Position numbers and translations under genes: made by a program
The notes under the pieces: generated by a model
Seen by the model: only the letters and a program-made list of their open reading frames with translations
What the model was told of the DNA's origin: nothing
Databases searched by the model: none
Part shown: piece after piece, positions 10,839 through 48,881 of the stretch
How the letters are laid out: every line of letters starts with the position of its first letter
Numbering within the stretch: position 1 is the first letter of the stretch
Source: a virus
IMG/VR virus record: IMGVR_UViG_3300031519_004559
DNA length: 64,000 bases
Strand: one strand, 5' to 3'

Positions 10839-10864
10839 TTGGGCGTTTTGAAGAGATCGCCCAA
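10839..10864 (-). terminator. Stem-loop downstream of MoxR
   Basis: TTGGGCG...CGCCCAA inverted repeat; weak U-tract. Confidence 0.4.
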
Positions 10865-10874
10865 ACTCTTACGT

Positions 10875-11963: not shown

Positions 11964-12018
11964 TTTGTATTCCTCTTTAGTTTCTATCAGTGCCATACTG
12001 TTTTATTAGTATGTGTAT

Positions 12019-16119: not shown

Positions 16120-17016
16120 CTAGGTACCCCAGGCATTTCCGAATAAGCTGATGTGTAGTCTAGGGGTGAAGCGCCATCCCTTTTCCATGCAAACTTCCGC
16201 AACTTCTTTAACGTTAAGGACATACTCTTCCGAGCGTCCCCCAAGCGGCATACAATATACTGGACACTCAACGCCGACATCACGATATGCTTGCACAGCT
16301 CGCCCAGCTTCATCAATGTCTGCACGATCAGCAACGACAAATTTAAGATAAAGATCACTGCCATCAACAGTGGAATAGTTAAGAGCGACATCAGGCTTAA
16401 TAGCGTCCATCCAAGATTCTCCGCTAACGGATAGCTTAGGCGAACAACTCCACGTGACAGTAATTCTGTCACTATTGTTGAGATAGTTGTAGAGGTCATC
16501 ATGTAATACTTGTGTAGTGTTTGTTTCAAATGTAACATTTTTTAAATCCTTCATACGTGGATGTTCGAACAGTTCTACGTAAAGTCGTTGCCACGCTAAC
16601 AACGGCTCACCACCTGTCATAATTAAATGGATATCTTGTCCGTTATCCATTGTCCACTTGCCTTCTGGAGTAAGAGATAGCAAATGCTCAACTACTTCTT
16701 CAACTTCTGCAAGTTTGTTAAAGTCTTTAAACTCAGGATAGATACTTGCATAAGTGTCACATCCTGTATGGATAATAGGCAAATCTGTAAACTTTTCAGT
16801 CTTTGCAATAATGCCATCATCTAACAAATCTTTTACTTCTTGATTGTAGCGTTGCCCGCCTGCAAGTTTTTCTGCACGACTAGGTTCATCTTTACCGAGT
16901 CCAAAGTTCATACAACGGAAGTTACAACCGAAGGTACGCAAGAATACACTAGGTACTCCTACAAACTTACCTTCGCCTTGTACGCTGTAGAACGCTTCAC
17001 TGTACCGCAACTTCAT
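16120..17016 (-). CDS. queE: 7-carboxy-7-deazaguanine synthase (radical SAM)
   Basis: FYSVQGEG..G.PSVFLR..GCNFRC...GCDT, TGGEP, ETN, SPKL, RLH. Confidence 0.9.
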   Translation of the reverse strand: MKLRYSEAFYSVQGEGKFVGVPSVFLRTFGCNFRCMNFGLGKDEPSRAEKLAGGQRYNQEVKDLLDDGIIAKTEKFTDLPIIHTGCDTYASIYPEFKDFNKLAEVEEVVEHLLSLTPEGKWTMDNGQDIHLIMTGGEPLLAWQRLYVELFEHPRMKDLKNVTFETNTTQVLHDDLYNYLNNSDRITVTWSCSPKLSVSGESWMDAIKPDVALNYSTVDGSDLYLKFVVADRADIDEAGRAVQAYRDVGVECPVYCMPLGGRSEEYVLNVKEVAEVCMEKGWRFTPRLHISLFGNAWGT

Positions 17017-17696
17017 CGTGCAAACTCCTGTTGCAATTTAATGTTGTCAAAGAACTCCTTCTTAGTACCCGGATCATATTTAAAACTACCTTGTAATACA
17101 GTTGTTTGTGTAAGACTGCTAGTTGCCATAATGCCACGGTTCTCACAACAGCCGTGTGTTGCTTGAATATAAACACCTAAGTTTTCTGCACCAGTTGCTT
17201 TACCAATCTCACGTGCAATGTCATTTGCAAGTTCTTCTTGTAGAGTGCCACGTCGAGCGCACCATTGTGCAATACGTGTGTACTTACTAAGTCCGATAAG
17301 TTTGTCTGCAGCAATAATACCAATATATGCAGTGCCTGTAACAGGCTGGTGATGATGTGAACACATGCTTTTAAGTTCACTACGTACAACCAACATTCCG
17401 TCATATCGTTCATCACTGTCATTAGGAAATGCTGTTGCACTTGGCATTGGGTCATACCGACCTGACATAATCTCATTAAAGTACATCTTAGCAAGCCGTC
17501 TTGCTGTACCTTCTGAGTTAGGATCGTTGCGTCGATCAATAATTAGTGTATCTAGTACAGTGTTAAAAGCTAGAGTAGCTTCATCAATAAGATCTTGTTT
17601 ATCTCCATCTTCTAACACTGCACTAATATTGTCGCCGGCCCAAAAGCGTATATTGTTTACTTCTAGACGTTGTTTAACTACTTCTGATTTATTCAT
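17013..17696 (-). CDS. folE: GTP cyclohydrolase I
   Basis: SMCSHHH, GLSK..RI, LQE, H.C...RG. Confidence 0.95.
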   Translation of the reverse strand: MNKSEVVKQRLEVNNIRFWAGDNISAVLEDGDKQDLIDEATLAFNTVLDTLIIDRRNDPNSEGTARRLAKMYFNEIMSGRYDPMPSATAFPNDSDERYDGMLVVRSELKSMCSHHHQPVTGTAYIGIIAADKLIGLSKYTRIAQWCARRGTLQEELANDIAREIGKATGAENLGVYIQATHGCCENRGIMATSSLTQTTVLQGSFKYDPGTKKEFFDNIKLQQEFAR

Positions 17697-19510: not shown

Positions 19511-20566
19511 TTACTCATTAGATATTGCCTCATAAAGTGCGCTACCGCTAAAAAACTCTTTGTTAAGTTTAGTAACTTGCTTGTTAATATTTGGAAGTAG
19601 ATCATCATAGTTTTCCATATAGTTTACAATTTGTGCGACTATTTTGTCTTTATGATGCAAGTATGCGTCATAGTTCTCAGTCCACTCACTAGGGTATTTA
19701 AATATGTCTAACCCCATTTCACTGTAACTTAGACGATCAGGTACCATAGGAATAGCATCAACTAATGCGCCTTCATACCAGCTAATGCCAAGTGTTTCTT
19801 GTAGGTTAGCACTAAACACCATCTTAGCTTCGCCTAACAAGTTATGATATTCGTTTTTAGTAAGTTGGTAATCTTGACAAACAACAAACTCGTATTGCGG
19901 CAACCGCTCTGCAAGATCTCTAAAGATTTCAACTTGCTTTTCAGGTGCAACTCTATGTGGAAATAAGATCAAGTCTCGTTTTGTCATACCTTTATAACTA
20001 TCTAAACTGCTACGCAAGTACTCCATAGGCCAGCCAACTCTTATTGCTTTGTCCATATCAACATTATAATTATCCATCATTGTATCTGTAAATAAATCAA
20101 TATGGAATTCACTTGCAAAGAAGTTGTCATCATAGCATTCGTACATTGACATTTCAGCATGTCTAACCCACGGCTTGTCACCTATTAGTCTACCCAAGAA
20201 GTCTTGTGGATCGTAACTACCAGCATGCCACATGCCGCCAATACGAATGTCAACACCTAGTAACTCTGCCATATACTTTAATTGTATAACAGTAGGGTTC
20301 CAAGCATCTGTGTATAAAAAGTAGTCACCGTCCTTAACTTCTCCGTTAGCAAATATCCTGCTAATCTCTAACATTTGTTGGGATTTATAATTATTAGTTC
20401 CTGCAAAGTTAAGAAATGCCCCAGGCGTTGTAGCCTGAGGTACTTCTCCGCCACTAATTACAGTGACGTCTTCGTTTGTAGCTCGTTGCAGTTGTTTAGG
20501 AAGATACTCTTTCCATTGCTTAGTATAGCGTGAGTCAACTGCTTCAATGTCTACAATATAAATCAA
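19511..20566 (-). CDS. GT-B fold glycosyltransferase
   Basis: WHAGSYD, FPHRVAPEKQ, ETLGISWYEG (E-x7-E retaining-GT motif), PDRLSYSE; likely TTG start overlapping the upstream TGA. Confidence 0.8.
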   Translation of the reverse strand: MIYIVDIEAVDSRYTKQWKEYLPKQLQRATNEDVTVISGGEVPQATTPGAFLNFAGTNNYKSQQMLEISRIFANGEVKDGDYFLYTDAWNPTVIQLKYMAELLGVDIRIGGMWHAGSYDPQDFLGRLIGDKPWVRHAEMSMYECYDDNFFASEFHIDLFTDTMMDNYNVDMDKAIRVGWPMEYLRSSLDSYKGMTKRDLILFPHRVAPEKQVEIFRDLAERLPQYEFVVCQDYQLTKNEYHNLLGEAKMVFSANLQETLGISWYEGALVDAIPMVPDRLSYSEMGLDIFKYPSEWTENYDAYLHHKDKIVAQIVNYMENYDDLLPNINKQVTKLNKEFFSGSALYEAISNE

Positions 20567-20778
20567 TTTCCGTTCCTTGCCCGACGTTGTTGCCGACCTT
20601 GGTATTTTTGCCAAGAAAGATAACTTTCCCAGATTCGATCGCCTTTCTTATAAAGACTCTTTTCGTCATACGGTTTAGCTTCGAACCTACAGTAGTCTTT
20701 AAACTTATCTAGGTCATCAAATACTTTATTGTATGCTTCCCGATTGAAGTTAGCCATTTTATGTTCCTTTAATAGCAT
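20563..20778 (-). CDS. Hypothetical protein
   Basis: Coupled ORF; probable start MANFN after AAGGA. Confidence 0.55.
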   Translation of the reverse strand: MLLKEHKMANFNREAYNKVFDDLDKFKDYCRFEAKPYDEKSLYKKGDRIWESYLSWQKYQGRQQRRARNGN

Positions 20779-21227
20779 TAGTTTTTAGGATAAAAAATTG
20801 AACAGCCGTTTTCGCCATCTTCGGCGACATCAATTTCTACAAACCGGCTTGGGTATTTTGTAGAAATTTCTTGGTACAAATCATCTGCGATCATCTCACA
20901 TGACTTGTGATTCAGTTGTATTACATCTTGTGCATACAACCGTTCCATCCAGCGTTTAAACTGAATAAACTCAATATCGCGATCGTTGTGAAACACTTCG
21001 ATGCGAACTTTAAAGTGGAAAATATGACGATGCGGAATGCCTAGGAATGATACATCATCCCATTCGCCTGTTGCTAGTTTAGGATCAGTGTCTGCGCCTG
21101 GGTACATATGTACACCTTCTTTACGAAAGGTAACCCATACACTTCTGCTTGCTTGTTGTGTTGTCATTTTATCGTCTTCTTCTCTTGTTCTACGTAGCAT
21201 ATAATCATAATAAGCTTCATTTGTCAT
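20778..21227 (-). CDS. QueD-like T-fold protein with LxxxHRHxF motif (DpdL-type, putative CDG decarboxylase)
   Basis: LGIPHRHIF instead of the canonical QueD CxxxHGH; DRDIEF, SCEMIA, EDGENG. Confidence 0.75.
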   Translation of the reverse strand: MTNEAYYDYMLRRTREEDDKMTTQQASRSVWVTFRKEGVHMYPGADTDPKLATGEWDDVSFLGIPHRHIFHFKVRIEVFHNDRDIEFIQFKRWMERLYAQDVIQLNHKSCEMIADDLYQEISTKYPSRFVEIDVAEDGENGCSIFYPKN

Positions 21228-21922: not shown

Positions 21923-23482
21923 TTATATCTCCTCGAATAAATTGCCAAAGGTGGTACTAGCATTCACAGTCTTCTTACCAATAGCACCACGTGTTCCTGG
22001 AATGGCCATCCAAAACTTTGAATAACTATCAATAACCTTCATAGACTCTTCTCGAGTTGTCTTTGAAAAAATCTCTTCAACAACATCTCTAAATAGAATA
22101 CGATCAAACTTTTCGTCTACAAGCATCTTAGGTATAACGCCTGCATCGTACTGTCTATTAGCTTCTTGTACAGCATTAATGTGTGTCCATACGTTATGGC
22201 CCATCTGAATAGCATAACTAAAGCTATCCCAGCTCGTTGAGTCCCTGCCACGTACAGTTGTGTTACCATCTGCATCTAGCAAAGGATTACCTTCTTTGTC
22301 TAAGTCAACATCGCCTTTGAGTACTTTAATAGTACCAATTTTATTAGTATCACCGACTGAATACGTGCAAATATCGTTAACTAATAATCCGTCAGTTAAT
22401 GGACTATCTTCAAATGTATTAAAGATACCGTCTTGTAGTGTAGCGTCTTTAAATCCTCGAGTGTCAGTTGCATACTTTAGTTCGTCCACACTAGGCACCA
22501 TTCGATAGGTCCATTTACCTCTATCAGGTGTTTCAACTGATGTATATACTTGTCCATTAGCAGTTGCTAAAAATGGACTAGCACAGTCAAATGTAAGCAT
22601 CATAGTAGGGTTATAGTACTTACGTACAGCTCGTTGTACGTCTGTAAGTAACGTAGCCCATTCTAGCTTAGATGTGCCTAAGAAGTGCATTACATCGTGT
22701 ATACCGCTTTGTAGTAGTCCATCATAGTGCAATGAAACTATACGTTTAAGAACCAAATGCACATCGCACATATTCTGACCACCCATTGACCACCCATTAA
22801 AGTGATTGTCTGGATATTTGACTGGATCGCAATAGTCTTTCATTTGCTCATACCAGTCATCGGCGTCTGCATGATTCTCACCTTGCAATACGTTAAGGAA
22901 CTTACAAGCACCTGTTCTATGCTTCATCCAATAGTCATTGTTAATACGTGTTGCTTTCACAGCTTCTTGATATGTACTAATACCAGTTGCCTTTGCACCT
23001 GCTGGTGAACGTGCAACCCAAGCTGGAATATCAAGTATCATACCATAGTCCATGTAAGCATCCATCCAACGCAAAACACTATCACGTTTTTGCTGTGCTT
23101 TAGGACAATTAGGATCTTTCCAATCGCCTTCCCAAACACCTTTACCAATTTGAAAACCACCACTATCGCCTAGTGCCCAAGTATTATCACGATCTCTATT
23201 ACGGATCATATCTTCCTTAGGGCTAAACTTAGTAGTGTCTAATTCAGCATGTCCTGCAGAGTAAAGCGTCCACTTGTATGTAAATGCTCCTTCTTTGGAG
23301 TTAAGATAGTTAAGACTTTCCATGCCATTTGCAAAGTTTTTAGGCATACGATCATCAGAAACATACGGACCAGTTACAGGATCAGGATAACGTTGCTTGC
23401 CCACATAAGTTGCATAGAAGCCACTAAGTGCAGGTAAGAAATGTGCGTAATCTTGTTGCGCTTCTGTAAGGTCTTTATTCAT
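21923..23482 (-). CDS. dpdA: TGT-fold guanine transglycosylase, DpdA-like (DNA 7-deazaguanine insertase)
   Basis: DSGGFQ, MILD, LQG, GG, HFLG, FDC (catalytic Asp), HN; lacks the CxCxxC Zn motif; genomic context of folE/queE/clamp. Confidence 0.8.
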   Translation of the reverse strand: MNKDLTEAQQDYAHFLPALSGFYATYVGKQRYPDPVTGPYVSDDRMPKNFANGMESLNYLNSKEGAFTYKWTLYSAGHAELDTTKFSPKEDMIRNRDRDNTWALGDSGGFQIGKGVWEGDWKDPNCPKAQQKRDSVLRWMDAYMDYGMILDIPAWVARSPAGAKATGISTYQEAVKATRINNDYWMKHRTGACKFLNVLQGENHADADDWYEQMKDYCDPVKYPDNHFNGWSMGGQNMCDVHLVLKRIVSLHYDGLLQSGIHDVMHFLGTSKLEWATLLTDVQRAVRKYYNPTMMLTFDCASPFLATANGQVYTSVETPDRGKWTYRMVPSVDELKYATDTRGFKDATLQDGIFNTFEDSPLTDGLLVNDICTYSVGDTNKIGTIKVLKGDVDLDKEGNPLLDADGNTTVRGRDSTSWDSFSYAIQMGHNVWTHINAVQEANRQYDAGVIPKMLVDEKFDRILFRDVVEEIFSKTTREESMKVIDSYSKFWMAIPGTRGAIGKKTVNASTTFGNLFEEI

Positions 23483-24216
23483 TACTTACTCTGCGCTGGA
23501 AGAATATAATTGTATGTAGCTAAACCACTGTTAACTGTAATTTGCATAGCACCTTGATCACTAATGCTCATTGTAATATCACCACCAAGACTTAAAATTG
23601 ACTGTGTTTGTGCTACAGGCCAAGCCCAAGTATGCGACAACGAACCTTCTATATTAGACTGGAATACAAACTCGCCTGCGTGTGTGCTTTGATCACCGAA
23701 GCTAAACACAAGATCAGTTGCATCGCCTGTTTTTACAGTTTTTACGTTAAACGTAGGTTCTTCGGAATGTGCTGCACTTTGCAGTTTCATTCTTGTAATA
23801 CTAGCAACATGCGGATTAAATGTTACGTCCCAGCTTGCACCTTTAAATTTAACACTTTTAAGTTTTTCATCAATAATTTGCTGATTCATAAAACGGTAAT
23901 CGTTTTGGAAATCGCCTGCTGCATTTTCAAAGTGAATATGCGTAGGAATAGTTTCGCCATTGCGTTCTGCTTGCACAACATCGATCTTAGCATCTTTCTG
24001 ATACTCTGGATTCTTCAAGTGCAATGCTAACTTATCTAAGTTAGGCATACCAAATGTACCAGATGCAACATTAGAAGTTGTTTCTGCTGTAAGTATCACT
24101 GACCGATCCTCGGCCATTGATTCAAATGTAGTAGTTTCGCCACCCGTTACTTTAACTAAGCTGAGGAATCCCAGCGAGTGTGTTTTTGCGACTACGTCTT
24201 GTAAGATGTCTTTCAT
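23482..24216 (-). CDS. DNA polymerase sliding clamp (gp45/PCNA-like)
   Basis: 244 aa, beta-rich two-domain pattern, C-terminal YNYILPA; near polB; clamp loader present in the window. Confidence 0.7.
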   Translation of the reverse strand: MKDILQDVVAKTHSLGFLSLVKVTGGETTTFESMAEDRSVILTAETTSNVASGTFGMPNLDKLALHLKNPEYQKDAKIDVVQAERNGETIPTHIHFENAAGDFQNDYRFMNQQIIDEKLKSVKFKGASWDVTFNPHVASITRMKLQSAAHSEEPTFNVKTVKTGDATDLVFSFGDQSTHAGEFVFQSNIEGSLSHTWAWPVAQTQSILSLGGDITMSISDQGAMQITVNSGLATYNYILPAQSK

Positions 24217-24217
24217 G

Positions 24218-24970
24218 TTATTCTCCTATGTTAAGTTTTATTATATTATCTTTATGACCGTTTGTCAAGTACTTTTCTATATTATATTTAGGTTTAAAGC
24301 CCAAAGTCTTAATTTTTTCCATGTTCGCACAAGTCCATTGTCGTTCATGTGGTGTATTTAGGCGGATAGGCAAGTTGTCTGCAAAATCACGGATCTTATA
24401 TGGAGTACCCGTGCCTATATCAATAGTGCCTGTATACGTGCTTTTCATACAAAGCTCAATAGCATCGCATAAATCTTCAATGTGTATAAAGTCTCTATAG
24501 TGATCTGTTACATATTCTAGTCCACCATTAAATAGTTTGTCAAAGAACATGCCTTTGCGTGGAGTGTCTGAATAAACGGTATGAAACCGCATGCCTAGTG
24601 TATCAGCATAACGTTCAGCAGCTTCTTCGACTATGTACTTAGACGCCGCATAAGGGTTCAAATCGGGCTCGTAAGCACTGGAACTGCTTGCGTATAGTAT
24701 ACGTGTATCTCTGTAGCGTTCAAACAGACGCTTGCTTGCTTCAACATTGTTACGCCAATAGCCTGCAGGATCGTTTGTACTTTCTCGAACTCCACTTTTG
24801 CCTGCTAGATGTATAATTAAATCAAACTCTTCTGAAAACTCTACATCACATAAGTCAAGTCCGTCTTGTAGGTCAATACCAACTACTACTCTGTCTTTTG
24901 TTTCTAATAGTCTGTTTAGTAAATGTGTACCAATAAATCCTTTATGGCCTGTTAATAATATTCTATGCAT
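24218..24970 (-). CDS. NAD-dependent nucleotide-sugar epimerase/dehydratase
   Basis: TGHKGFIG, HLAG, ASSSS, YAASK, RFHTVY. Confidence 0.9.
   Translation of the reverse strand: MHRILLTGHKGFIGTHLLNRLLETKDRVVVGIDLQDGLDLCDVEFSEEFDLIIHLAGKSGVRESTNDPAGYWRNNVEASKRLFERYRDTRILYASSSSAYEPDLNPYAASKYIVEEAAERYADTLGMRFHTVYSDTPRKGMFFDKLFNGGLEYVTDHYRDFIHIEDLCDAIELCMKSTYTGTIDIGTGTPYKIRDFADNLPIRLNTPHERQWTCANMEKIKTLGFKPKYNIEKYLTNGHKDNIIKLNIGE
24240..24268 (-). promoter_or_regulatory. Sigma70-type promoter (clamp-dpdA)
   Basis: TTGACA-17-TATAAT. Confidence 0.9.
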
Positions 24971-25367
24971 TAACTCGATTCCTTAAATCACTTGAACTGA
25001 AACGGTGGTCTCTTTTGTTAAAGTGTAATTCGATGTCACGCTTGCGGCAAATGTCTTTACCTGTGAAATCTTTGTCGCGATACTCTTCTCCTAGTATGCG
25101 TACTTCTATTGGATACATACTAAGGATATCTTCTAAGTCTTCTTCAGTTCCGTACGGAATAATTTCATCTACATACTCTACACCTTTTAGTTGAGTATAG
25201 CGTTCAACTACTGTTTGTATGGGTGCGTTCTTGTCTTTGCGATCAACACTAGGGTCTACCTGTAATCCGCAAATTAAATAATCGCATTGTTCTTTTGCTT
25301 CACGCAACATAATTACGTGTCCAGCATGTAATAAATCAAACGTGCTACAAGTAAATCCTACTTTCAA
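24963..25367 (-). CDS. Cytidylyltransferase (TagD-like)
   Basis: STFDLLHAGH, VDEIIPY, R..FSSSDLR. Confidence 0.9.
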   Translation of the reverse strand: MKVGFTCSTFDLLHAGHVIMLREAKEQCDYLICGLQVDPSVDRKDKNAPIQTVVERYTQLKGVEYVDEIIPYGTEEDLEDILSMYPIEVRILGEEYRDKDFTGKDICRKRDIELHFNKRDHRFSSSDLRNRVNA

Positions 25368-25693
25368 TGTTCTCTCCTTCCATCAAATACACAAATAAAC
25401 TTTAAACCAACGTCTGTGTTGTTGTGTACTCTGTGAAATACGTTGTCGTGGATTAGTACAGTGTCGCCTGCTGTAACATCAAATATTTTATGATCAAGCT
25501 CCATCTGTCCACTACCGCCTACAAAGACATAGACTTCTTCTTGCCCGGCATGCCGGTGACCTGTTGTACTTTTACCTGCATTTAAATGCGTACTACTCAC
25601 TACAAGGTTGCTTAGATCAGTATTGTCTTTAACAACATAACGTGCATCTTCTTTAACAACCTTGCCGCCAATATCCCAATCACTGTATTTCAA
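25364..25693 (-). CDS. Cupin (phosphomannose-isomerase-like)
   Basis: GHRH..QEEVY, G.G, GD, FHRVHN; probable TTG start. Confidence 0.8.
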   Translation of the reverse strand: MKYSDWDIGGKVVKEDARYVVKDNTDLSNLVVSSTHLNAGKSTTGHRHAGQEEVYVFVGGSGQMELDHKIFDVTAGDTVLIHDNVFHRVHNNTDVGLKFICVFDGRREH

Positions 25694-26406
25694 TTTGCTA
25701 TCCCCCTTTGTTGGAAATTTTCTAAAATTTCTTTTGTGTCTCTCCAACTTTTAACTTGTTTTGCAACACCGCCTGCTTCTTTTACAGCATATGCAAGACT
25801 AAAATCGTTGCCGTCTGGGTCCATTCTATCGCCAAAGAAGAATACTCTATCTTTTTGTATTTCCTGCAGCACTTGACGCTTGTCTTTACCTTTAGCAATA
25901 ATGTCAATACCGGTTTCGCCACCAACCACTGCACTTACATTAGGAAAATGTTTGTTGATCCTTTCAGCAATGTGTATGCGTTCGTCGGCTTCTATGTCAT
26001 AGTAAAAGTAATCTTTGCGTTGTACTTTATCTGCATTACGCCCCACAACACTAAAGTTAACCATGCCCGGCCGTTCTTCTAAATGCTTGCCGGTTTTAAT
26101 TGTGTATTCACTATTTTTAAGTTCAGCATTAAGAAATTCTTTAAGTTCGTCGGTCATCTTCCAAGGATTAGTGTAAACATTCTCTTGTCGATACCATACA
26201 TCGTTGCCGTTGCAATTATAAATCTTGTTTACACTCATACAAATTTCAGGACCAATCTGTTCAAGCGTTTTAGGGTTATCACTTCCTGTAACTAAACTTA
26301 CTGTATTGTTTTGCGAAAAATATAAAAACCACAATGCAAATTGAGGATTTATTTTCTTCCTACTAGGGGTAAGTGTGCCGTCAACATCAAATATAAAATG
26401 ATTCAT
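25690..26406 (-). CDS. HAD-IIB phosphomannomutase (eukaryotic PMM-like)
   Basis: FDVDGTLT, VTGSD, E.RPGMVNFS..GR, FFGD..DPDGND. Confidence 0.85.
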   Translation of the reverse strand: MNHFIFDVDGTLTPSRKKINPQFALWFLYFSQNNTVSLVTGSDNPKTLEQIGPEICMSVNKIYNCNGNDVWYRQENVYTNPWKMTDELKEFLNAELKNSEYTIKTGKHLEERPGMVNFSVVGRNADKVQRKDYFYYDIEADERIHIAERINKHFPNVSAVVGGETGIDIIAKGKDKRQVLQEIQKDRVFFFGDRMDPDGNDFSLAYAVKEAGGVAKQVKSWRDTKEILENFQQRGIAN

Positions 26407-26407
26407 T

Positions 26408-29077
26408 TTACTCTCCAAAGTCAAACAAACTTGAAAACGTATTATGCCTCTTAGTATCTTCTAGTGGATAGTTAAGAACTCCAATCAAGTTGTCTAGTTT
26501 GTTATCAATAATAGTTTCTGCCATAGCTATATCATCAAATGGCAACTCTTTAAACCAATCAGGAATACGTAACTCGTCTGTTGGATACGCAACACTTGTA
26601 TACCCTAGTGGATTTTGTTTTAGTTTACAAACAATGACCTTCATGCCGTCTACAACTTCTTGCGAGTACTTGTCACCATTCATACGTTTGAGTGTATTCC
26701 AATTAATACTTGCTCTAACGTGTCCAGGCATGTTTGCTTTGCCTTGCTTTTCTTCAAGTCGTTGATAGTGTCCGACTTTGTTTGCACGTTTCGGACTACC
26801 TTTCTCCCAACCAGGCCTCTCACTAAACTCCTTACGGAATACAGTAATACGTTCTAGTACATCTTCTTGCGGCTTGTCAGTAAGCACCATAAGCAATAGC
26901 TCACTTAGGAACTCTTGCATAAACACGGGAGTATCTGATCTACGCAAGTCCAAGCCCATTGCTTTTACTTTACCTGCTTTGCCGTCTACATCTGTTCTAA
27001 AGCCTTCAATGTCATACACTAGTGCTGCATAACGCTTCTTAGTAATAAACAACCCTGACTGTGCTACAATTTCTCTAGCCGCTGCAATAACGTCTGATCT
27101 ACTCTTTGGACAATGAAATGCTTCCATCATAAACTTTGGAAAAGTTTCATTAGCCGCTTCGCATACTTGATCATATAGTGTAATTACGTTGTCCTTATCC
27201 CAAGGAATAGAACCATTGTCAATTTGCTCTTTGAGAATAGGATAACCACTAAAGTAACATGAGTCAGTATCACCATAGATCATTGCATCACCTGTGTGAT
27301 CATAAACACCTGTAATAGTCTTGTTAACTTCTGCACTCATATGCTTAACAATAGTACGTCCTGTTAGTGTTGTACTTTGTCCGATACGTTTGTCAAAGAA
27401 TCTACAACCTGGATTAAGAATTGCACCATACAAACTGTTAAGCAAAATCTTCTTAACTAGCTGTCGCTTATCCCAATACTCAATCTCTGCTGAGTTGCCG
27501 GCGTCCTTAGCTTTCTTTAGCTTCTTCTGCATCTCTTTACGTTCAGCATACCAACGTTTTAAAATACCTGGAATAACACCTTCAAACTCTGTAGTAAAAA
27601 TAGTACCGTTACTACTAAGCATCCAGGGTTGATGACTATCAAACACTGCTTTATAAATTTCAGCACCGCTTAGAACGTCACTGCCCCCGCTCTCCCAGTC
27701 AATGGTTAGCGCAACATCTTTACGCTGTTCCATAACTGCTTCATATTCTTCTGTACTAAAGCGTCCTTCCCAACTACCAGCAAAACTCTTCTTCTTTAAG
27801 AACATGTCTTCGTGTACACGAGCATCACTAATGTCTGGACGTATTTGTCCAATAACAGTTTCTGGCGCCATGTTTAATGCACGAATAACTGACGGATATA
27901 GTGAGTTCAAATCCATTGAACCAATCCATTTGTGCAAGCCCTTCTTAGGAAATGCTACATATGCACCAGCCGCTTGTGTATTTTCGTCATCACGTCTTTG
28001 TCGATTAGGAACTTGTAAGCCTCTATGGTGAGCTTCGTTAACAATGCCTTGTTCTGTAACAGCAACAGCGCCCATTGTAGTTTGAATAAGAACTGTGTTC
28101 TCGTGTGCAATAGTGTTAGACAAGTCAATAAAGCGTAGTTTCTTATCTAGTTTATCAAGTAGTGCTGTATCTTGAATGTTATATTGAATAAATTTACGGA
28201 AGTCGTTGTTGTATAATTGATCAAGTGTGCCTTCGTATTCAACTTTGTTTTCACCTACCTCAATCTCGCCAATAGCATCTAGTCGATATGTGTGACGCTC
28301 TTCGTAGGTGTACTTGCGATACAAATTCAAACTATCTAAGTGTACACGCCCAACTAAGTCAAACGTTTGGCTTTCTTTGCCGTACTTCTCGTACATACGC
28401 TTCTTAGGAAGTTGGCCCCACAAGCAGAATCTACGTGTGTCGTCTTTGCTTAGTACACGACTAGTCCTGTTTACAGTATATGGAATATCATATCCTTCAC
28501 TGTTCCATCCACTAAGTACATCACTGTCTTCAATAAGTGTTAAGAAAGTATCAATCATTTCACTTTCTTTTTCAACTAGCATTACATTGTCTATGCCTTC
28601 AACTTCTTTACGTGCTTGCTCCATAGTAAGTGTCTTTGGAGGTACAGCAATACATATCATAGTGTCGAGCCACTGTAAGTATACACTAATACTTGTAATA
28701 GGCATAAACGGATCACTAGGATCAGCAAAGCCACGTTCTGGATCAAAGTCGGTCTCAATATCAAAAAATGCAACGTTTAGTTTAGGTGCATCTGCGTTAA
28801 GATAGTTATCACTCAAACATTGAAAAATAGGATTAATGTCACTTTCAAACAGTTCTTTGTCTCTGTTAATAGCAACTTCTTTGCGGAAGTCTTTTGTACT
28901 CTTACATACAATACGACTTAGGGGATCACCGTATACACTTTTGTACTTGCCCCTAGGGTCTTTATAAAAAAATGTATATTTAGATTGATATTCACGGTAA
29001 ATTCTTTTACCATCTTTGCGTTCAACAGCTCGAATGATATCGGCGTCGCGATCAAAGAATGCGTCTACGTAGCTCAT
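26408..29077 (-). CDS. polB: Family B DNA polymerase
   Basis: Exonuclease FDIET, GWN..YD; polymerase DLNSLYPS, K..LNS.YG, YGDTDS, KKRY; start MSYVD after GAAGGAG. Confidence 0.97.
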   Translation of the reverse strand: MSYVDAFFDRDADIIRAVERKDGKRIYREYQSKYTFFYKDPRGKYKSVYGDPLSRIVCKSTKDFRKEVAINRDKELFESDINPIFQCLSDNYLNADAPKLNVAFFDIETDFDPERGFADPSDPFMPITSISVYLQWLDTMICIAVPPKTLTMEQARKEVEGIDNVMLVEKESEMIDTFLTLIEDSDVLSGWNSEGYDIPYTVNRTSRVLSKDDTRRFCLWGQLPKKRMYEKYGKESQTFDLVGRVHLDSLNLYRKYTYEERHTYRLDAIGEIEVGENKVEYEGTLDQLYNNDFRKFIQYNIQDTALLDKLDKKLRFIDLSNTIAHENTVLIQTTMGAVAVTEQGIVNEAHHRGLQVPNRQRRDDENTQAAGAYVAFPKKGLHKWIGSMDLNSLYPSVIRALNMAPETVIGQIRPDISDARVHEDMFLKKKSFAGSWEGRFSTEEYEAVMEQRKDVALTIDWESGGSDVLSGAEIYKAVFDSHQPWMLSSNGTIFTTEFEGVIPGILKRWYAERKEMQKKLKKAKDAGNSAEIEYWDKRQLVKKILLNSLYGAILNPGCRFFDKRIGQSTTLTGRTIVKHMSAEVNKTITGVYDHTGDAMIYGDTDSCYFSGYPILKEQIDNGSIPWDKDNVITLYDQVCEAANETFPKFMMEAFHCPKSRSDVIAAAREIVAQSGLFITKKRYAALVYDIEGFRTDVDGKAGKVKAMGLDLRRSDTPVFMQEFLSELLLMVLTDKPQEDVLERITVFRKEFSERPGWEKGSPKRANKVGHYQRLEEKQGKANMPGHVRASINWNTLKRMNGDKYSQEVVDGMKVIVCKLKQNPLGYTSVAYPTDELRIPDWFKELPFDDIAMAETIIDNKLDNLIGVLNYPLEDTKRHNTFSSLFDFGE

Positions 29078-29150
29078 GTATTCTCCTTCGTTGCTTATGG
29101 CCAACTTAACCTTCTACATGCCTAGCTAATAGCTATTGGCGTATTATTAA

Positions 29151-35255: not shown

Positions 35256-35945
35256 TTATTTATCTATATCTGCATCGCAGACTAGTTTGTCGATACGTTG
35301 TATACAATTGCCTGCAATAATTTTAAATAACATTAATACTTTCTCAGTAGTCATAAAAATATAACGGCCATTCATATATTTTAAGTCTTGATCAAGATCA
35401 TCAAGTAGCATATCTGAAACTTTTACTTTGTCTCTATTTGCCTTTAACCAAGGCCCTAAAGTATCAGGCACCCAATTACTATTAAAAGTAACTTTATATT
35501 GATATGTGTTATCCTTAACTATAATAGTGTTAGTATTATTACGAATAAACTCTATATGCTCTTTTGCAGGTCCTGCAAAAGTTTGCACACTTCTTAATTT
35601 ATTAGACAACCTACGAAGAAATGCATCGTCATTACAATAAAAATTTAAGGTATTGCTTTCGCATCGTATTAAGTAAACATCCTTATACCTAGTTAATACA
35701 TTATAAATTGTTCTAGCGTCAATAAAATGTGCAATATCTATCGGTGATTGATATCTACCTTGCCACCTAGTAAGTGGCAAAATTCCATTATCAAGATCTG
35801 TTTGTAATTGGTCCAATACCGTAGAAGCAAACATAAAGTTTTTGTTCCTAAATATTGGACCAAGTTGATTATATACCGTTAGACAATACAGATATTTATT
35901 ATAGAAAAGTTTATTAGTGTCATGCTGTAATAGTTTCTTTTTCAT
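35256..35945 (-). CDS. Hypothetical protein
   Basis: 229-aa ORF overlapping the end of clpA. Confidence 0.6.
   Translation of the reverse strand: MKKKLLQHDTNKLFYNKYLYCLTVYNQLGPIFRNKNFMFASTVLDQLQTDLDNGILPLTRWQGRYQSPIDIAHFIDARTIYNVLTRYKDVYLIRCESNTLNFYCNDDAFLRRLSNKLRSVQTFAGPAKEHIEFIRNNTNTIIVKDNTYQYKVTFNSNWVPDTLGPWLKANRDKVKVSDMLLDDLDQDLKYMNGRYIFMTTEKVLMLFKIIAGNCIQRIDKLVCDADIDK
35257..35264 (-). promoter_or_regulatory. Late-type promoter
   Basis: GATAAATA 5 nt before the ATG. Confidence 0.65.
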
Positions 35946-38166
35946 TATATACTAATACCAATTCTTTTCCTTTAGTGTTCACATCTATCTTACATTTGCC
36001 ACCGTCTTTTAGTGTGCCAAATAATAACTGACGTGATAGCGGTTGTTTGATCTCTTTATCAATCACACGCTGTAATGGTCTTGCACCCATCTTTTTATTA
36101 AATCCTTTTTCTACCAAGTAATCAAGTGCTTCATCACTTATAGTAATATCAACCTGCTTGCCTTTAACCTGAGCTTTTAATTCAACTAAGAACTTACCAA
36201 CAATTTTCATCATTACTTCTTTACCAAGAGTATCAAAAGTAATTATGCCGTCGAGTCTATTTCTAAATTCTGGAGCAAAGAATCTCTTTAGTTCAGTATC
36301 TTCATAATAGTTATCGCTATCATCACTAAATCCGATAGTGTTTTTCTCAGCCTGTGCAGCACCTAAGTTAGTAGTAAGAATTAGTACACAGTTACGTGCA
36401 TCTGCTTCTTTACCATTAGATCCTGTCAGCTTGCCATTGTCCATTACTTGCAACAAGATTTGTGAAACATCTGGATGAGCTTTTTCGATCTCGTCAAGTA
36501 ACAATACACAGTTAGGATTTTCTTGCAACTTAGTAATTAACAATCCGTTGTTTTCGTCGTAACCAACGTAACCAGGTGGTGATCCAATTAGTTTAGCAAC
36601 GCTGTGCTTTTCCTGATATTCTGACATATCAAAACGTACAAGTGTTACTCCTAATTGTTTAGCAAGTGATTTTGCTGTTTCAGTTTTACCAGTGCCTGTC
36701 GGACCCATAAACACAAATGCTCCAATAGGTTTATCATCTGGTTTTAATCCTGCTTGTGCAACTAGTATCTTATCAACAATGCCTTCGACTGCTTTATCCT
36801 GGCCGTACACATCACCTTTGATGTTCTTTTCAAGGTTTTTAAGATTGTCAGTTTCTTTTTCAGCAACTTGCTCTGTAGGTAAGTTTATAACTTTAGCAAG
36901 TTCAAACTGTATTTCCGCACCGTCAACAATTTTATCACCTGTAACTTCCTTTAAATTAAATCTCGAACATGCAAGATCAATTAAGTCAATTGCTTTATCT
37001 GGCAATTTCTTATCACTTTGATATTTAACACTTAATTTGATTGCTTCTGCAATAGCTTCGTCGGTAATAGTAGTTTTATGAAACTCTTCGTAATACTTTT
37101 TAATACCATGTAAAATATCTTTAGTAACTTCTGGACTAGGCTCGTCAACTGTTACACGTTGGAATCGACGCATTAATGCACGATCCTTTTCAAAGAACTT
37201 GCGATACTCATCCCAAGTAGTTGATGCAACAACTTTAATGTTACCTTTAGCAAGAGCTGGTTTTAGCATGTTAGCTAAATCATTTGCACTATTACCGCCA
37301 CCACCTGATCCAGCACCACTAATCATATGTGCTTCGTCGATGAACATAATAGTTTTGCCTTTGCCTTTAAGACCTGCAAGTACTAATTTAAAGCGTTCTT
37401 CAAAGTCTCCGCGATACTTACTACCTGCAAGCATACTACCAATGTCTAACATGAATACTTTATATTCTTTTAAAAACTCTGGAACAGTTCCTTGCACAAT
37501 ATTCCAAGCAAGGCCTTCTGCAATAGCAGTTTTACCAACTCCTGGATCACCAACAAGTAAACAGTTATTTTTATTACGTCTGCCTAATGCAAGTGCAATA
37601 GTATCTAACTCAGCCTCGCGACCAATTACAGGATCAATCTTTTCTTTTACAACTTCTTGATTTAAGTCAGTTGTAAACTGTCTCAATGCACGTTGTGCTT
37701 CGCCTGACATTTCCTCGTCTTCGATACTTGTTTCTAATTCTGCATTAATGTATTCTGCAAATGTATCTTTTTTAAGACCGCTTTGCTCTAAAAAGTAATT
37801 ACTAATAGATTTCTTTTCAGACATAATACTTAACATAACATCTACTAGTTCAATAGTATTACGTCCAGCAAATAGTACTTGTGTAAATGCTCTATTTAAA
37901 ACTCTTTCAACGGCTTGCGTTTTTTTAGGTTTGTATTTTGCTAACTCAATTTTTAATTCGTCGCACTTCTCTTTTAGATGATGCTCTAGGTGAGATTTAA
38001 TATAATCTACATCAGCACCATACTCTTTTATAACATCATAAAACGGATCACTGCACAGCATACTAAACAATAAATGTTCAATAGTGACATACTCATGTCT
38101 TAGTTTCTTTGCATCTGTAATCGACTTATCAAATACTAACTGTAACTCTTGACTCGGTTCAACCAT
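35920..38166 (-). CDS. clpA: Clp protease ATP-binding subunit ClpA-like
   Basis: Clp N domain (HEYVTIEHLL), two AAA modules (GDPGVGKT, GPTGTGKT), IGF loop, MGARPL. Confidence 0.95.
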   Translation of the reverse strand: MVEPSQELQLVFDKSITDAKKLRHEYVTIEHLLFSMLCSDPFYDVIKEYGADVDYIKSHLEHHLKEKCDELKIELAKYKPKKTQAVERVLNRAFTQVLFAGRNTIELVDVMLSIMSEKKSISNYFLEQSGLKKDTFAEYINAELETSIEDEEMSGEAQRALRQFTTDLNQEVVKEKIDPVIGREAELDTIALALGRRNKNNCLLVGDPGVGKTAIAEGLAWNIVQGTVPEFLKEYKVFMLDIGSMLAGSKYRGDFEERFKLVLAGLKGKGKTIMFIDEAHMISGAGSGGGGNSANDLANMLKPALAKGNIKVVASTTWDEYRKFFEKDRALMRRFQRVTVDEPSPEVTKDILHGIKKYYEEFHKTTITDEAIAEAIKLSVKYQSDKKLPDKAIDLIDLACSRFNLKEVTGDKIVDGAEIQFELAKVINLPTEQVAEKETDNLKNLEKNIKGDVYGQDKAVEGIVDKILVAQAGLKPDDKPIGAFVFMGPTGTGKTETAKSLAKQLGVTLVRFDMSEYQEKHSVAKLIGSPPGYVGYDENNGLLITKLQENPNCVLLLDEIEKAHPDVSQILLQVMDNGKLTGSNGKEADARNCVLILTTNLGAAQAEKNTIGFSDDSDNYYEDTELKRFFAPEFRNRLDGIITFDTLGKEVMMKIVGKFLVELKAQVKGKQVDITISDEALDYLVEKGFNKKMGARPLQRVIDKEIKQPLSRQLLFGTLKDGGKCKIDVNTKGKELVLVYNEKETITA

Positions 38167-47549: not shown

Positions 47550-47967
47550 TTTTCCTACCCATGTAACTTTTTACTACGTCTATTAATTGTTGGTGTGTGT
47601 CATTAAACCATTGTGCAACATGGTAGTCATATTCTACAGGCGCTTGGAACATCTTATTGGTATCTTCAAAACGTCCCTTTTGGATAGTGTCCATCCACAC
47701 AGTAAAGTCTGGATTAAACTCTGCTCGAGCTTCTTCAGTTGGGCACACAAAGTCTGCTATTGCAATCTTGCCAGCCATAACAACTCCATCTGCCAAGAAC
47801 TTCATACGCATTGCTTGACGCATACGACCTTCTGGACTAAAGTCCCAGTCGTCGTATTGTTTTCTAACAGCATCAGCGTTAATCCAAACGCCGCCAATGA
47901 GTTTTGCAAACGGCTCGGCTAGTGTGCTCTTGCCGCTTCCAGGTAATCCAAATATTAATATCTTCAT
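47542..47967 (-). CDS. cysC: Adenylyl-sulfate kinase-like P-loop kinase
   Basis: GLPGSGKST, NADAVR, DFSPEGR, FVCP. Confidence 0.7.
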   Translation of the reverse strand: MKILIFGLPGSGKSTLAEPFAKLIGGVWINADAVRKQYDDWDFSPEGRMRQAMRMKFLADGVVMAGKIAIADFVCPTEEARAEFNPDFTVWMDTIQKGRFEDTNKMFQAPVEYDYHVAQWFNDTHQQLIDVVKSYMGRKNV

Positions 47968-48881
47968 TACAGTCTTGCTAGTCGAATTAGCGTAGCTGCT
48001 AAATTAATCTCCGGATCAACAACTAGCGTATGATCAACTAGACCTTGCTTAATAACAAGTACGGCAGTGTCTTGTTTTTCTTCATCACCAAACAACTCAA
48101 TGTTATCATATAGCCAGCGATAGATCTCTTCCATCTCTTCTGGACGAACTGCACCACATAGTAGTTTACGTGCTTCTGCAATCTTACCATCTTTAAATAA
48201 TTCAACCATATCTAGCTTCCAGTCTTGTTCACCAGTATCGCCTTCGTTAGGTTTAAGTAAGCTATTATCTTGTACATTCATTTGTACAGTGTTAATGCAC
48301 TTACGTAGGTCTGGGTAAGTTGCTTTTACATAAGTGTCGAGTGTATCTAAGTCTGGAGTTACGCCTTCTGTAATAAGTATCTCTGCAACACGAGCAGTAA
48401 ACTCAGTTTGGTCAATTTTAGCAATATGAAAGCCTTGACAACGACTGTGTATAGCAGGAATAATTCTGTTAGGATAGTTACACGTCATAATAAAACGTGC
48501 TGTTGTGTGATACTCTTCCATCACTCCACGTAGTGCGGCTTGGGCGTTAGGCGACAAATAGTCAGCCTCATCAAGTAGTACAACTTTAAAGTCACCAAAC
48601 GGAATCATTTGTACAAAGTTAACAATTTTGTCACGTACATCGTCTACACTGTTAGTGCGACTTGCGTTAATCTCTAAGATATCTAACGGATTAAGATCAA
48701 GTTCGTTGAACAACAGTTTAGCAAGAGTAGTCTTACCAATACCTGCATTGCCACTAAACAGCAAATGCGGAATAGTCTTTTCTTTAATCCAAGTGTTTAC
48801 TTGGTTTCGCTGTGCATCATCACGAAACACGTATCCGTCAACTGTTGCTGGACGGTATTTTTCTACCCATAATTCTTTCAT
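47967..48881 (-). CDS. Clamp loader ATPase (RFC small subunit/gp44-like)
   Basis: WVEKYRP, GNAGIGKT, NAS, DEAD, SRC. Confidence 0.95.
   Translation of the reverse strand: MKELWVEKYRPATVDGYVFRDDAQRNQVNTWIKEKTIPHLLFSGNAGIGKTTLAKLLFNELDLNPLDILEINASRTNSVDDVRDKIVNFVQMIPFGDFKVVLLDEADYLSPNAQAALRGVMEEYHTTARFIMTCNYPNRIIPAIHSRCQGFHIAKIDQTEFTARVAEILITEGVTPDLDTLDTYVKATYPDLRKCINTVQMNVQDNSLLKPNEGDTGEQDWKLDMVELFKDGKIAEARKLLCGAVRPEEMEEIYRWLYDNIELFGDEEKQDTAVLVIKQGLVDHTLVVDPEINLAATLIRLARL

What the first reader, a model, noticed from the sequence alone, without database searches (positions are those of the whole stretch)
21923..26450. The DpdA-like transglycosylase ends in the same C-terminal TFxxLF tail as the DNA polymerase, suggesting clamp-tethered base exchange
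Seen: PolB ends ...RHNTFSSLFDFGE and the TGT-like protein ends ...ASTTFGNLFEEI, both T-F-x-x-L-F-acidic at the extreme C-terminus. The TGT-like gene is translationally coupled (TAATG at 23482) to the clamp gene and shares its promoter. Known: T4-like polymerases, gp33 and gp55 dock on gp45 through short C-terminal hydrophobic peptides (LDFLF-like), as PIP boxes do on PCNA. Inference: the base-exchange enzyme rides the sliding clamp and modifies nascent phage DNA at the fork. This would explain phage-versus-host DNA discrimination and argues for a DNA rather than tRNA substrate.
Basis: partly seen in the sequence, partly recalled or inferred. Interest (0 to 1): 0.85.

Follow-up and report, generated by a model that had tools for sequence, protein, structure and literature searches.

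The report
DNA base-swapping enzyme with polymerase-like clamp tail
In this giant marine phage, the enzyme that probably swaps guanine in DNA for a modified base ends in the same short peptide its DNA polymerase is expected to use to hold the sliding clamp, and that peptide is kept across very distant relatives, which suggests DNA modification is physically coupled to replication.

Summary
PolB (26408-29104, -) ends NTFSSLFDFGE. The 519-aa protein (21923-23482, -) ends TTFGNLFEEI. They are the only two of 98 window ORFs with this kind of tail.

The 244-aa neighbour folds as a PCNA-type clamp. The 519-aa protein folds as a tRNA-guanine transglycosylase (Z 19.8) with the catalytic aspartates intact. 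Its closest characterised relative is the DNA transglycosylase DpdA2 of Vibrio phage VH7D.

The tail sits on a low-confidence linker. An xFxxLF motif occurs in 80/80 close homologs and in many relatives of only 30-45% identity. It tracks the cognate polymerase tail:
- Vibrio phage 2.275.O: ...NTDLFDW and ...NNDLFGW, rank 1/495
- PA5oct: rank 2/432
- a marine clade: both end ...LFDF

Homologs in bacterial chromosomes have no PolB or clamp nearby and lack the motif.

One caveat: in about 90% of close homologs the motif is internal, followed by a conserved acidic extension that this window lacks.

Clamp tethering is the best explanation (about 0.65), but binding itself was not tested. I found no paper that describes it. 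I rate it a new variant of known kinds: T4 gp43/gp55 tails and DpdA.

The parts
26408..29104 (-). Family B DNA polymerase (T4 gp43-like, 898 aa)
   Evidence: Pfam DNA_pol_B 3e-35 and phrog_262 3.5e-200. 42-48% identity to the PolB of jumbo phages Phosso, Atu_ph07 and Vibrio 2.275.O.
26411..26443 (-). PolB C-terminal peptide NTFSSLFDFGE, the presumed clamp-binding epitope
   Evidence: All 64 complete PolB tails in related loci match TF..LF[DE]F. It is analogous to T4 gp43 ...SLDFLFG, whose tail is an established gp45 ligand (PMC2988020).
24218..26424 (-). Sugar-nucleotide cassette between PolB and the clamp: PMM-like, cupin/mannose-6-P isomerase-like, cytidylyltransferase-like and NAD epimerase genes
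   Evidence: Pfam hits. This is context only and not part of the tether. Its content varies between related loci.
24240..24268 (-). Perfect sigma-70-type promoter consensus upstream of the clamp gene
   Evidence: 12/12 match. A 12/12 match occurs within 120 nt upstream of the clamp in 59/78 related loci, and an 11/12 or better match in 72/78.
23482..24216 (-). PCNA-fold sliding clamp (244 aa)
   Evidence: AF2 pLDDT 81, pTM 0.79. Foldseek PDB top hits are all PCNA or the ASFV clamp, prob 1.00, TM 0.6-0.7. Homologs are annotated as PCNA or sliding clamp in phages PAC2 and Phosso.
23480..23484 (-). TAATG stop/start overlap between the clamp and the transglycosylase gene
   Evidence: The gap between the two genes is 10 nt or less in 46/78 related loci.
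22004..23482 (-). TGT-fold catalytic domain of the DpdA-like protein (residues 1-493)
   Evidence: AF2 pLDDT 94, pTM 0.92. VIA Z 19.8 with 302 residues aligned to TGT 2ash. hhalign to E. coli TGT gives prob 92%, and to VH7D DpdA2 prob 96%. D106, D151 and D299 are invariant or near-invariant in the family.
21956..22003 (-). Flexible basic linker IPGTRGAIGKKTVNAS (residues 494-509)
   Evidence: pLDDT falls to 72 and then 46; residues 501-511 are below 50.
21926..21955 (-). C-terminal peptide TTFGNLFEEI (residues 510-519), the proposed clamp-docking motif
   Evidence: The xFxxLF motif is present in 80/80 close homologs and enriched in distant ones.
16120..17696 (-). QueE-like radical SAM protein (16120-17016) and GTP cyclohydrolase I FolE (17013-17696): 7-deazaguanine precursor synthesis
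   Evidence: phrog_2076 2e-48 and NCBIfam QueE models (sub-threshold). Pfam GTP_cyclohydroI 1.6e-37.
47967..48881 (-). Clamp-loader subunit (gp44/RFC-like)
   Evidence: phrog_168 'clamp loader of DNA polymerase' 4e-75.

Best explanation
The 519-aa protein is a divergent DpdA-type DNA guanine transglycosylase. It has a TGT-fold catalytic core and is closest to DpdA2. A roughly 16-residue disordered basic linker leads to a short hydrophobic-acidic peptide, T-F-x-x-L-F-[DE], which copies the C-terminal peptide of the phage's own T4-like DNA polymerase.

In T4, gp43, gp55 and gp33 share such tails to dock on gp45. By that analogy, the peptide docks the transglycosylase on the adjacent, co-transcribed PCNA-fold clamp. 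The clamp loader places clamps on phage replication intermediates. The enzyme would therefore be held on newly replicated phage DNA and would exchange guanine for a 7-deazaguanine derivative made by the neighbouring FolE/QueE pathway.

What is shown: both tails, both folds, the conserved catalytic residues, motif conservation, resemblance to the cognate polymerase tail in several lineages, loss of the motif in bacterial homologs, and conserved synteny and promoter.

What is inferred: physical binding to the clamp, DNA as substrate, the identity of the inserted base, and the timing relative to the fork.
For: Folds:
- The clamp has a PCNA fold.
- The 519-aa protein has a TGT fold, Z 19.8.
- The DSGGFQ, LDxP and FDCxxP catalytic motifs align to E. 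coli TGT D89, D143 and D264.
- The closest characterised relatives are VH7D and nt-1 DpdA2. PMC10516641 validated these as DNA transglycosylases.

The tail behaves like a tethered short linear motif:
- It sits on a low-pLDDT linker.
- xFxxLF occurs in 80/80 close homologs.
- [FY]..[LM]F occurs in the last 45 aa of 23/101 representatives from 50%-identity clusters, against 0.8% of body windows. [LM]F occurs in the last 12 aa of 32%, against 4%.
- The motif fraction falls from about 70% to 19% as relatedness to the window protein falls.

The tail resembles the cognate PolB tail:
- Window: rank 1/97.
- Vibrio 2.275.O...NNTDLFDW versus ...NNNDLFGW, rank 1/495.
- PA5oct: HFDSLF versus SFNSLF, rank 2/432.
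- The P0265 clade: both end LFDF.
- L162: FQQLFDFK versus FNNLFEMA.

Nineteen bacterial-chromosome homologs have no PolB or clamp nearby. None of the 17 complete tails carries the xFxxLF motif.

Synteny PolB - clamp - transglycosylase holds in the marine clades, PA5oct and Vibrio 2.275.O.

T4 precedent read from the T4 record: gp43 ...SLDFLFG and gp55 ...SLDFLYEAND. The literature describes interchangeable clamp-binding epitopes on unstructured linkers (PMC2988020).

PA5oct DNA resists restriction at G-containing sites (PMC12191111).
Against: - No binding test was possible.
- In 72/80 close homologs and in PA5oct the motif is internal and followed by a conserved acidic extension. A strictly C-terminal T4-type epitope is therefore not the general form.
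- The Phosso pair is weak (...TTFNDLFTF versus ...IVEGLF), and its gene lies next to primase and helicase, not PolB and the clamp.
- The permutation test for covariation is modest: p 0.02 and 0.08.
- The clamp shows no sequence similarity to T4 gp45, so the polymerase-tail-to-clamp interaction is itself inferred by analogy.
- The T4-like phage VH7D's DpdA2 tail (...AEFPAFKEQE) does not obviously match its gp43 tail (...TLESFFG).
Confidence: 0.65

Rival explanations
1. The shared peptide binds a common partner other than the clamp, for example the clamp loader, the single-strand-binding protein or the helicase. Alternatively it acts mainly as a competitor that regulates polymerase access to the clamp, rather than tethering the enzyme productively.
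For: T4 gp45 has several ligand sites, and its clamp loader uses the same face (PMC2988020). The second conserved acidic helix (LDExKLEELEDEQL) in most homologs hints at further partners. In Phosso the gene sits beside primase and DnaB rather than the clamp.
Against: The only established role of this kind of PolB tail in T4 and RB69 is clamp binding. The clamp gene is the immediate, often overlapping upstream neighbour in most lineages.
Confidence: 0.12
2. The motif serves a function unrelated to the replisome, and its likeness to the PolB tail is convergence on a generic hydrophobic-acidic ending. It could be a C-terminal degron for the phage's Lon-like protease, an oligomerisation or autoinhibitory element, or a docking site for the partner glycosyltransferase.
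For: The window encodes a 748-aa ATP-dependent protease (35920-38166). A glycosyltransferase-like partner (p367) co-occurs with the enzyme even in bacterial loci. Short hydrophobic tails are common signals.
Against: - Bacterial homologs that keep the p367 partner lack the motif.
- The motif follows lineage-specific details of the PolB tail, such as ...LF[DG]W in Vibrio 2.275.O and ...LFDF in the P0265 clade.
- Genome-wide, the transglycosylase is the best or second-best match to the PolB tail.
- The region has low pLDDT and is not packed.
Confidence: 0.1
3. The enzyme is a tRNA-modifying TGT (a host-takeover or translation function), not a DNA transglycosylase, and the tail is irrelevant to DNA modification.
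For: The fold and catalytic residues are those of tRNA-guanine transglycosylases. No activity data exist for this subfamily.
Against: - The protein is closer to the validated DNA enzyme DpdA2 than to E. coli TGT (prob 96% versus 92%).
- No Cys or His cluster equivalent to the TGT zinc site appears among the conserved columns.
- PA5oct, which encodes a homolog, has DNA resistant at G-containing sites.
- The gene is embedded between replisome genes.
Confidence: 0.05

Closest known systems
T4 and RB69 clamp-binding C-terminal epitopes of gp43, gp55 and gp33 docking on gp45
   Same: Short hydrophobic-acidic peptides on unstructured linkers, nearly identical between the polymerase and a non-polymerase client. 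T4 gp43 ends ...SLDFLFG and gp55 ends ...SLDFLYEAND (PMC2988020). Here PolB ends ...SLFDFGE and the client ends ...NLFEEI.
   Different: The client is a DNA base-exchange enzyme, not a transcription factor. The clamp is PCNA-like with no detectable sequence similarity to gp45. In most homologs the motif is internal and followed by a second acidic module.
DpdA2 DNA guanine transglycosylases of Vibrio phages VH7D and nt-1 (Hutinet et al. 2023, PMC10516641)
   Same: TGT-fold enzyme encoded next to folE and que genes. hhalign prob 96%, E 7.5e-9. Foldseek BFVD hit to the nt-1 protein, E 2e-10.
   Different: Only about 20% identity over the core. It has extra insertions (519 versus 459 aa) and no Pfam TGT hit. 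It carries the polymerase-like tail and sits directly after the clamp. VH7D DpdA2's tail does not obviously match its gp43 tail.
DpdA3 (Cellulophaga phiST, Campylobacter CP220), the subfamily linked to complete G replacement
   Same: A very divergent TGT-like enzyme missed by standard models, in phages whose pathway appears to stop at CDG (FolE and QueE but no QueC seen here).
   Different: There is only a weak structural match to the phiST protein (E 3.7e-3, 259 aa). The family profile finds nothing in CP220.
Eukaryotic DNMT1-PCNA and UNG2-PCNA (PIP-box recruitment of DNA-modifying or base-excising enzymes to replication forks); from general knowledge
   Same: The same logic: a short clamp-binding motif on a flexible segment couples a DNA base-modifying enzyme to newly replicated DNA.
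   Different: Different motif (QxxLxxFF), different enzymes, eukaryotic. No phage or bacterial DNA-hypermodification enzyme with such a motif turned up in the searched literature.
Bacterial beta-clamp-binding motif QL[SD]LF; from general knowledge
   Same: The core ...SLF / ...DLF with preceding polar residues. It can be internal or C-terminal.
   Different: The clamp here is a two-domain PCNA-type protein, not the three-domain beta clamp.

Membership tests
TGT superfamily / DpdA DNA transglycosylases | TGT-type (beta/alpha)8 barrel fold | tested here: met
   AF2 pLDDT 94. Foldseek PDB top 50 hits are all TGT, prob 1.00. VIA Z 18.6-19.8, about 300 residues aligned, rmsd about 4.4.
TGT superfamily / DpdA DNA transglycosylases | Catalytic aspartates: DSGGFQ acid/base, substrate-binding Asp, and the FDC nucleophile | tested here: met
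   D106, D151 and D299 are invariant or near-invariant in 106 sequences. They align with E. coli TGT D89, D143 and D264 motifs.
TGT superfamily / DpdA DNA transglycosylases | Match to the curated family model (Pfam PF01702 TGT or an NCBIfam model) | tested here: not met
   No Pfam, NCBIfam or PHROG hit at E<=0.01. The relationship is visible only by profile-profile and fold comparison.
TGT superfamily / DpdA DNA transglycosylases | Genomic association with 7-deazaguanine biosynthesis genes | tested here: met
   FolE and QueE-like genes in the window. QueF, QueC and FolE lie next to the Vibrio 2.275.O homolog. QueE lies near the PA5oct homolog.
TGT superfamily / DpdA DNA transglycosylases | Base exchange on DNA (not tRNA) | not testable with these tools
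   Indirect only: it is nearest to validated DpdA2, and PA5oct DNA is refractory at G-containing sites (PMC12191111).
T4-type clamp-binding C-terminal epitope | Short hydrophobic-acidic peptide highly similar to the cognate polymerase tail | tested here: met
   Rank 1/97 (window), 1/495 (Vibrio 2.275.O) and 2/432 (PA5oct). The P0265 clade ends LFDF in both proteins.
T4-type clamp-binding C-terminal epitope | Located at the extreme C-terminus | tested here: inconclusive
   Terminal in the window, in 8/80 close loci, and in many distant representatives. A 20-39-residue acidic extension follows it in 72/80 close loci and in PA5oct. T4 gp55 itself has 4 residues after the motif.
T4-type clamp-binding C-terminal epitope | Connected by an unstructured, sequence-variable linker | tested here: met
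   Residues 501-511 have pLDDT below 50. Linker sequences are unrelated between clades while the motif persists.
T4-type clamp-binding C-terminal epitope | Physical binding to the hydrophobic pocket or interface of the clamp | not testable with these tools
   No multimer prediction or binding assay was available.
PCNA/gp45-type sliding clamp (the 244-aa protein) | Two-domain pseudo-symmetric processivity fold | tested here: met
   Foldseek hits to PCNA and the ASFV clamp, E 2.5e-9, prob 1.00, TM 0.6-0.7 over the full length.
PCNA/gp45-type sliding clamp (the 244-aa protein) | Genomic partnership with a replicative polymerase and a clamp loader | tested here: met
   It lies downstream of PolB in all lineages examined. 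A clamp loader is in the window.
PCNA/gp45-type sliding clamp (the 244-aa protein) | Sequence similarity to T4 gp45 | tested here: not met
   hhalign of the family alignment against T4 gp45 gives prob 0.3%. phmmer against the PDB finds nothing.

The most novel reading that the evidence does not exclude
A whole, environmentally abundant lineage of jumbo phages (thousands of metagenomic homologs, plus PA5oct-like Pseudomonas phages and Vibrio phage 2.275.O) runs replication-coupled DNA hypermodification. A DpdA-type transglycosylase rides the phage sliding clamp as a 'tool-belt' client next to the polymerase and exchanges guanines on nascent DNA. The clamp supplies both self/non-self discrimination and the processivity needed for dense modification. 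The second conserved acidic helix in most homologs would then be a regulatory or hand-off module. This would be the first clamp-tethered base-exchange enzyme, and a prokaryotic-virus counterpart of DNMT1-PCNA.
Probability: 0.5. Interest if true: 0.8.

Novelty: new variant of a known kind. Interest (0 to 1): 0.7.

Why it matters
Current work treats phage 7-deazaguanine DNA modification as post-replicative base exchange by free DpdA enzymes, with efficiencies from below 0.1% to 100% of Gs that remain unexplained (PMC10516641).

A clamp-docking peptide on the transglycosylase would give a concrete mechanism on three points:
- how the enzyme finds phage rather than host DNA;
- how modification keeps pace with replication;
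- why some systems modify densely.

It also extends the repertoire of sliding-clamp clients to a new enzyme class. The idea can be tested in a culturable system (PA5oct on P. aeruginosa PAO1). The family is very abundant in marine metagenomes: more than 7,600 hits among the 8,000 scored candidates.

Tried and rejected
Sequence-only identification failed for both proteins:
- phmmer or hmmsearch against PDB sequences found nothing.
- Pfam, PHROGs and NCBIfam gave nothing for the 519-aa protein.
- The clamp family has no hhalign similarity to T4 gp45.

Other dead ends:
- There is no near-identical phage genome (megablast).
- No whole genome is held for this window.
- Attempts to place the family against DpdA3 did not work. 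The profile finds nothing in CP220, my guessed accession for phiST was wrong, and the paper's supplements are not held.
- Loci could not be obtained for representatives P0254, P0344, P0287 and P0277. I therefore could not ask whether phage homologs without the motif also lack a clamp.
- Alignment A3 was too diverse for a genome scan.
- A Pfam scan of the whole alignment A2 exceeded the size limit.

Explanations I considered and rejected:
- Chance similarity. Rejected on the rank tests, the enrichment and the conservation.
- The tail as part of the folded domain. Rejected on low pLDDT and variable linkers.
- A degron or a glycosyltransferase-docking role. Kept as a low-probability rival.

The VH7D DpdA2 tail does not clearly resemble its gp43 tail. 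I do not claim the principle extends to DpdA2 of T4-like phages.

Full report
**What is at the coordinates.** All genes in 17-29 kb lie on the minus strand and are tightly packed. In order they are:
- a T4 gp43-like family B polymerase (26408-29104; Pfam DNA_pol_B, phrog_262);
- four sugar-nucleotide genes (24218-26424);
- a 244-aa ORF (23482-24216);
- a 519-aa ORF (21923-23482);
- further downstream, a 173-aa and a 149-aa protein, a glycosyltransferase-like 367-aa protein, a phosphoribosyltransferase, a HIT protein, FolE (17013-17696) and a QueE-like radical SAM enzyme (16120-17016).

A clamp-loader subunit lies at 47967-48881. The window has no near-identical relative among 50,697 phage records. 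Its PolB is 42-48% identical to those of the jumbo phages Phosso, Atu_ph07, Vibrio 2.275.O and the PBECO4 group. Homologs are extremely abundant in marine metagenomes.

**The observation.** PolB ends ...RHNTFSSLFDFGE and the 519-aa protein ends ...ASTTFGNLFEEI. Of 230 raw ORFs (98 likely genes) these are the only two with F..[LIMF]F in the last 15 residues. TFxxLF occurs only twice in 20,721 residues, both times at these C-termini. The clamp stop and the next start overlap as TAATG. A perfect TTGACA-17-TATAAT lies 24 nt upstream of the clamp ATG. A 12/12 match is present upstream of the clamp in 59 of 78 related loci, and the two genes are 10 nt or less apart in 46 of 78.

**What the two proteins are.** Neither is recognised by Pfam, NCBIfam or PDB sequence searches.

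The 244-aa protein was modelled with a 25-sequence alignment (pLDDT 81, pTM 0.79). It matches PCNA and the ASFV sliding clamp over its full length (Foldseek prob 1.00, TM 0.6-0.7). Homologs in PAC2 and Phosso are annotated as PCNA or sliding clamp.

The 519-aa protein was modelled with 106 diverse sequences (pLDDT 94.3, pTM 0.92). It matches tRNA-guanine transglycosylases (Foldseek prob 1.00; VIA Z 19.8, about 300 residues aligned). Family-invariant residues D106 (DSGGFQ), D151 (LDxP) and D299 (FDCxSPF) align with the catalytic aspartates of E. coli TGT (hhalign prob 92%). The closest characterised relative is DpdA2 of Vibrio phage VH7D (profile hit E 4.7e-6 in that genome; hhalign prob 96%). 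A BFVD hit to the nt-1 protein has E 2e-10. Both enzymes were shown to insert preQ0, preQ1 or CDG into DNA (PMC10516641). PA5oct encodes a 36%-identical homolog beside its clamp and near queE. Its DNA is resistant at G-containing restriction sites (PMC12191111). An earlier survey mentioned a deazaguanine synthesis/incorporation system in PA5oct (PMC7824862).

**The tail as a tethered short motif.** In the model the fold ends near residue 493. Residues 501-511 have pLDDT below 50 and the last nine about 57. This layout is a basic linker (IPGTRGAIGKKTVNAS) followed by TTFGNLFEEI.

In 80 IMG/VR loci with 74-100% identical homologs, every protein keeps x-F-x-x-L-F (80/80). All 64 complete PolB tails read TF..LF[DE]F. 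In 72 of the 80, however, the motif is followed by a 20-39-residue acidic extension ending in a conserved LDExKLEELEDEQL. Only 8, including the window, end right after the motif.

Among 101 full-length representatives from clusters at 50% identity, [FY]..[LM]F occurs in the last 45 residues of 23, against 0.8% of equally sized body windows. [LM]F occurs in the last 12 residues of 32%, against 4%. The fraction with the motif falls from about 70% among the nearer representatives to 19% among the most distant.

**Match to the cognate polymerase.**

| Lineage | PolB tail | Transglycosylase tail | Note |
|---|---|---|---|
| Vibrio phage 2.275.O (34% identity) | ...NNTDLFDW | ...NNNDLFGW | best match of 495 proteins, 32 vs 24 for the runner-up |
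| PA5oct | ...HFDSLFGW | ...SFNSLFD + acidic extension | rank 2 of 432 |
| Marine clade, 30-35% identity (L118-L126) | ...LFDF | ...LFDF[SDEN], in most loci | |
| L131 | FNKLFDF | FSSLFEGA | |
| L162 | FQQLFDFK | FNNLFEMA | |
| Phosso | ...TTFNDLFTF | ...IVEGLF | weakest case; the gene sits by primase and helicase |

A permutation test of matched against shuffled pairs gives p 0.02 (12 non-independent pairs) and 0.08 (7 deep clades). Conservation is therefore strong, while covariation is only suggestive.

**Negative control.** The most distant branch of the family lies in chromosomes of Sphingomonadales and other Alphaproteobacteria. None of 19 loci has a PolB or clamp homolog within 10 kb. 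None of the 17 complete tails has the xFxxLF motif, although one (L160) contains ELF. Some of these loci keep the glycosyltransferase-like partner (40-50% identity), so the motif does not track that partner.

**Precedent.** Reading the T4 record directly, gp43 ends ...SLDFLFG and the late sigma factor gp55 ends ...SLDFLYEAND. [quoted passage not shown] In gp55 the epitope sits on an unstructured, variable linker. The RB69 clamp has been co-crystallised with the polymerase's last 11 residues (PMC2988020). The architecture here is the same, with a base-exchange enzyme as the client.

**Mechanism proposed.** The clamp loader loads the PCNA-like trimer on primer-template junctions of replicating phage DNA. 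PolB occupies one site through its tail. The transglycosylase docks through its mimic tail, either on the same ring or on clamps left behind the fork. It then replaces guanines with a 7-deazaguanine derivative supplied by FolE, QueE and neighbouring enzymes.

The shown steps are the folds, catalytic residues, motif, linker, conservation, synteny and co-transcription signals. The inferred steps are binding, the DNA substrate, the identity of the base and the timing. I put this at about 0.65.

Rivals, with lower weights, are a different shared partner or a competitive role (0.12), an unrelated role such as a degron or glycosyltransferase docking (0.10), and a tRNA enzyme (0.05).

**Novelty.** Full-text searches for DpdA or deazaguanine with clamp, jumbo phage or clamp-binding motif found no description of a clamp-binding tail on a DpdA. 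The DpdA papers do not discuss it. Clamp-binding peptides and DpdA enzymes are both known. Their combination, and the second acidic module, are new variants. Earlier notes from this scan on the same stretch independently recorded the clamp-dpdA coupling and the possible glycosylated deazapurine pathway. I did not rely on them.

**Limits.** No multimer prediction or binding assay was available. Several distant representatives could not be located on contigs.

Noticed in passing
L003-L081 (e.g. L003:7164-8828), L084:5998-7620 (PA5oct); absent at window 21923-21955: Most homologs carry a second conserved C-terminal module after the LF motif: an acidic linker plus an amphipathic helix, LDExKLEELEDEQL (PA5oct: INDEKLTELEQGLDN). 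It occurs in no other protein of these loci or of the PA5oct and Vibrio 2.275.O genomes. Its partner and function are unknown. The window's protein is a short form that lacks it.
   Followed up: partly
window 19511-20614 and 24218-26424; L147, L156, L157: A glycosyltransferase-like 367-aa protein accompanies the transglycosylase in the marine clades and, at 40-50% identity, in some alphaproteobacterial chromosomes. Together with the sugar-nucleotide cassette between PolB and the clamp, this suggests a sugar-decorated deazaguanine or another glycosylated DNA base.
   Followed up: partly
L142-L160 (Sphingomonas, Sphingobium, Azospirillum and other chromosomes): An uncharacterised bacterial branch of this divergent TGT-like family exists in Alphaproteobacteria, without replisome neighbours and without the LF tail. 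Whether it is part of a defence or modification island was not examined.
   Followed up: no
W01 (Vibrio phage 2.275.O) 163961-164215, 230797-231921, 215901-216338; W02 (PA5oct) 143938-144540: A few other proteins end in LF-type peptides...QETMDELF...ESIGGLF, an internal NKTDLFEA, and ...EPDPFKLFS after an acidic linker. They could be further clamp clients.
   Followed up: no
L137:1276-2655 and L138 (Vibrio phage VH7D): The validated DpdA2 of the T4-like phage VH7D ends ...TTAEFPAFKEQE, while its gp43 ends ...TLESFFG. Both are hydrophobic-acidic but not clearly the same motif, so it is unclear whether clamp docking extends to DpdA2.
   Followed up: no
L120:754-2994; L084:1-4834: The PolB of locus L120 appears interrupted by an intein-like insertion: the ORF runs into ...HSVMVERCGKLIEV.... 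PA5oct PolB is split by a homing endonuclease gene.
   Followed up: no
window 35920-38166: A 748-aa ATP-dependent (Lon-like) protease, phrog_4871 E 1e-249. It is relevant only as a possible reader of C-terminal degrons.
   Followed up: no
window 9495-11996: A MoxR-like AAA ATPase (phrog_1297) paired with a DUF2201 metallopeptidase/VWA protein.
   Followed up: no
window 20778-21227: The 149-aa protein (phrog_17812, HRHIFHF motif) lacks the canonical QueD signature. It is conserved next to the transglycosylase in all marine clades. An earlier scan note suggests it is a DpdL-like T-fold enzyme. No QueC was seen among the ORFs I scanned.
   Followed up: no
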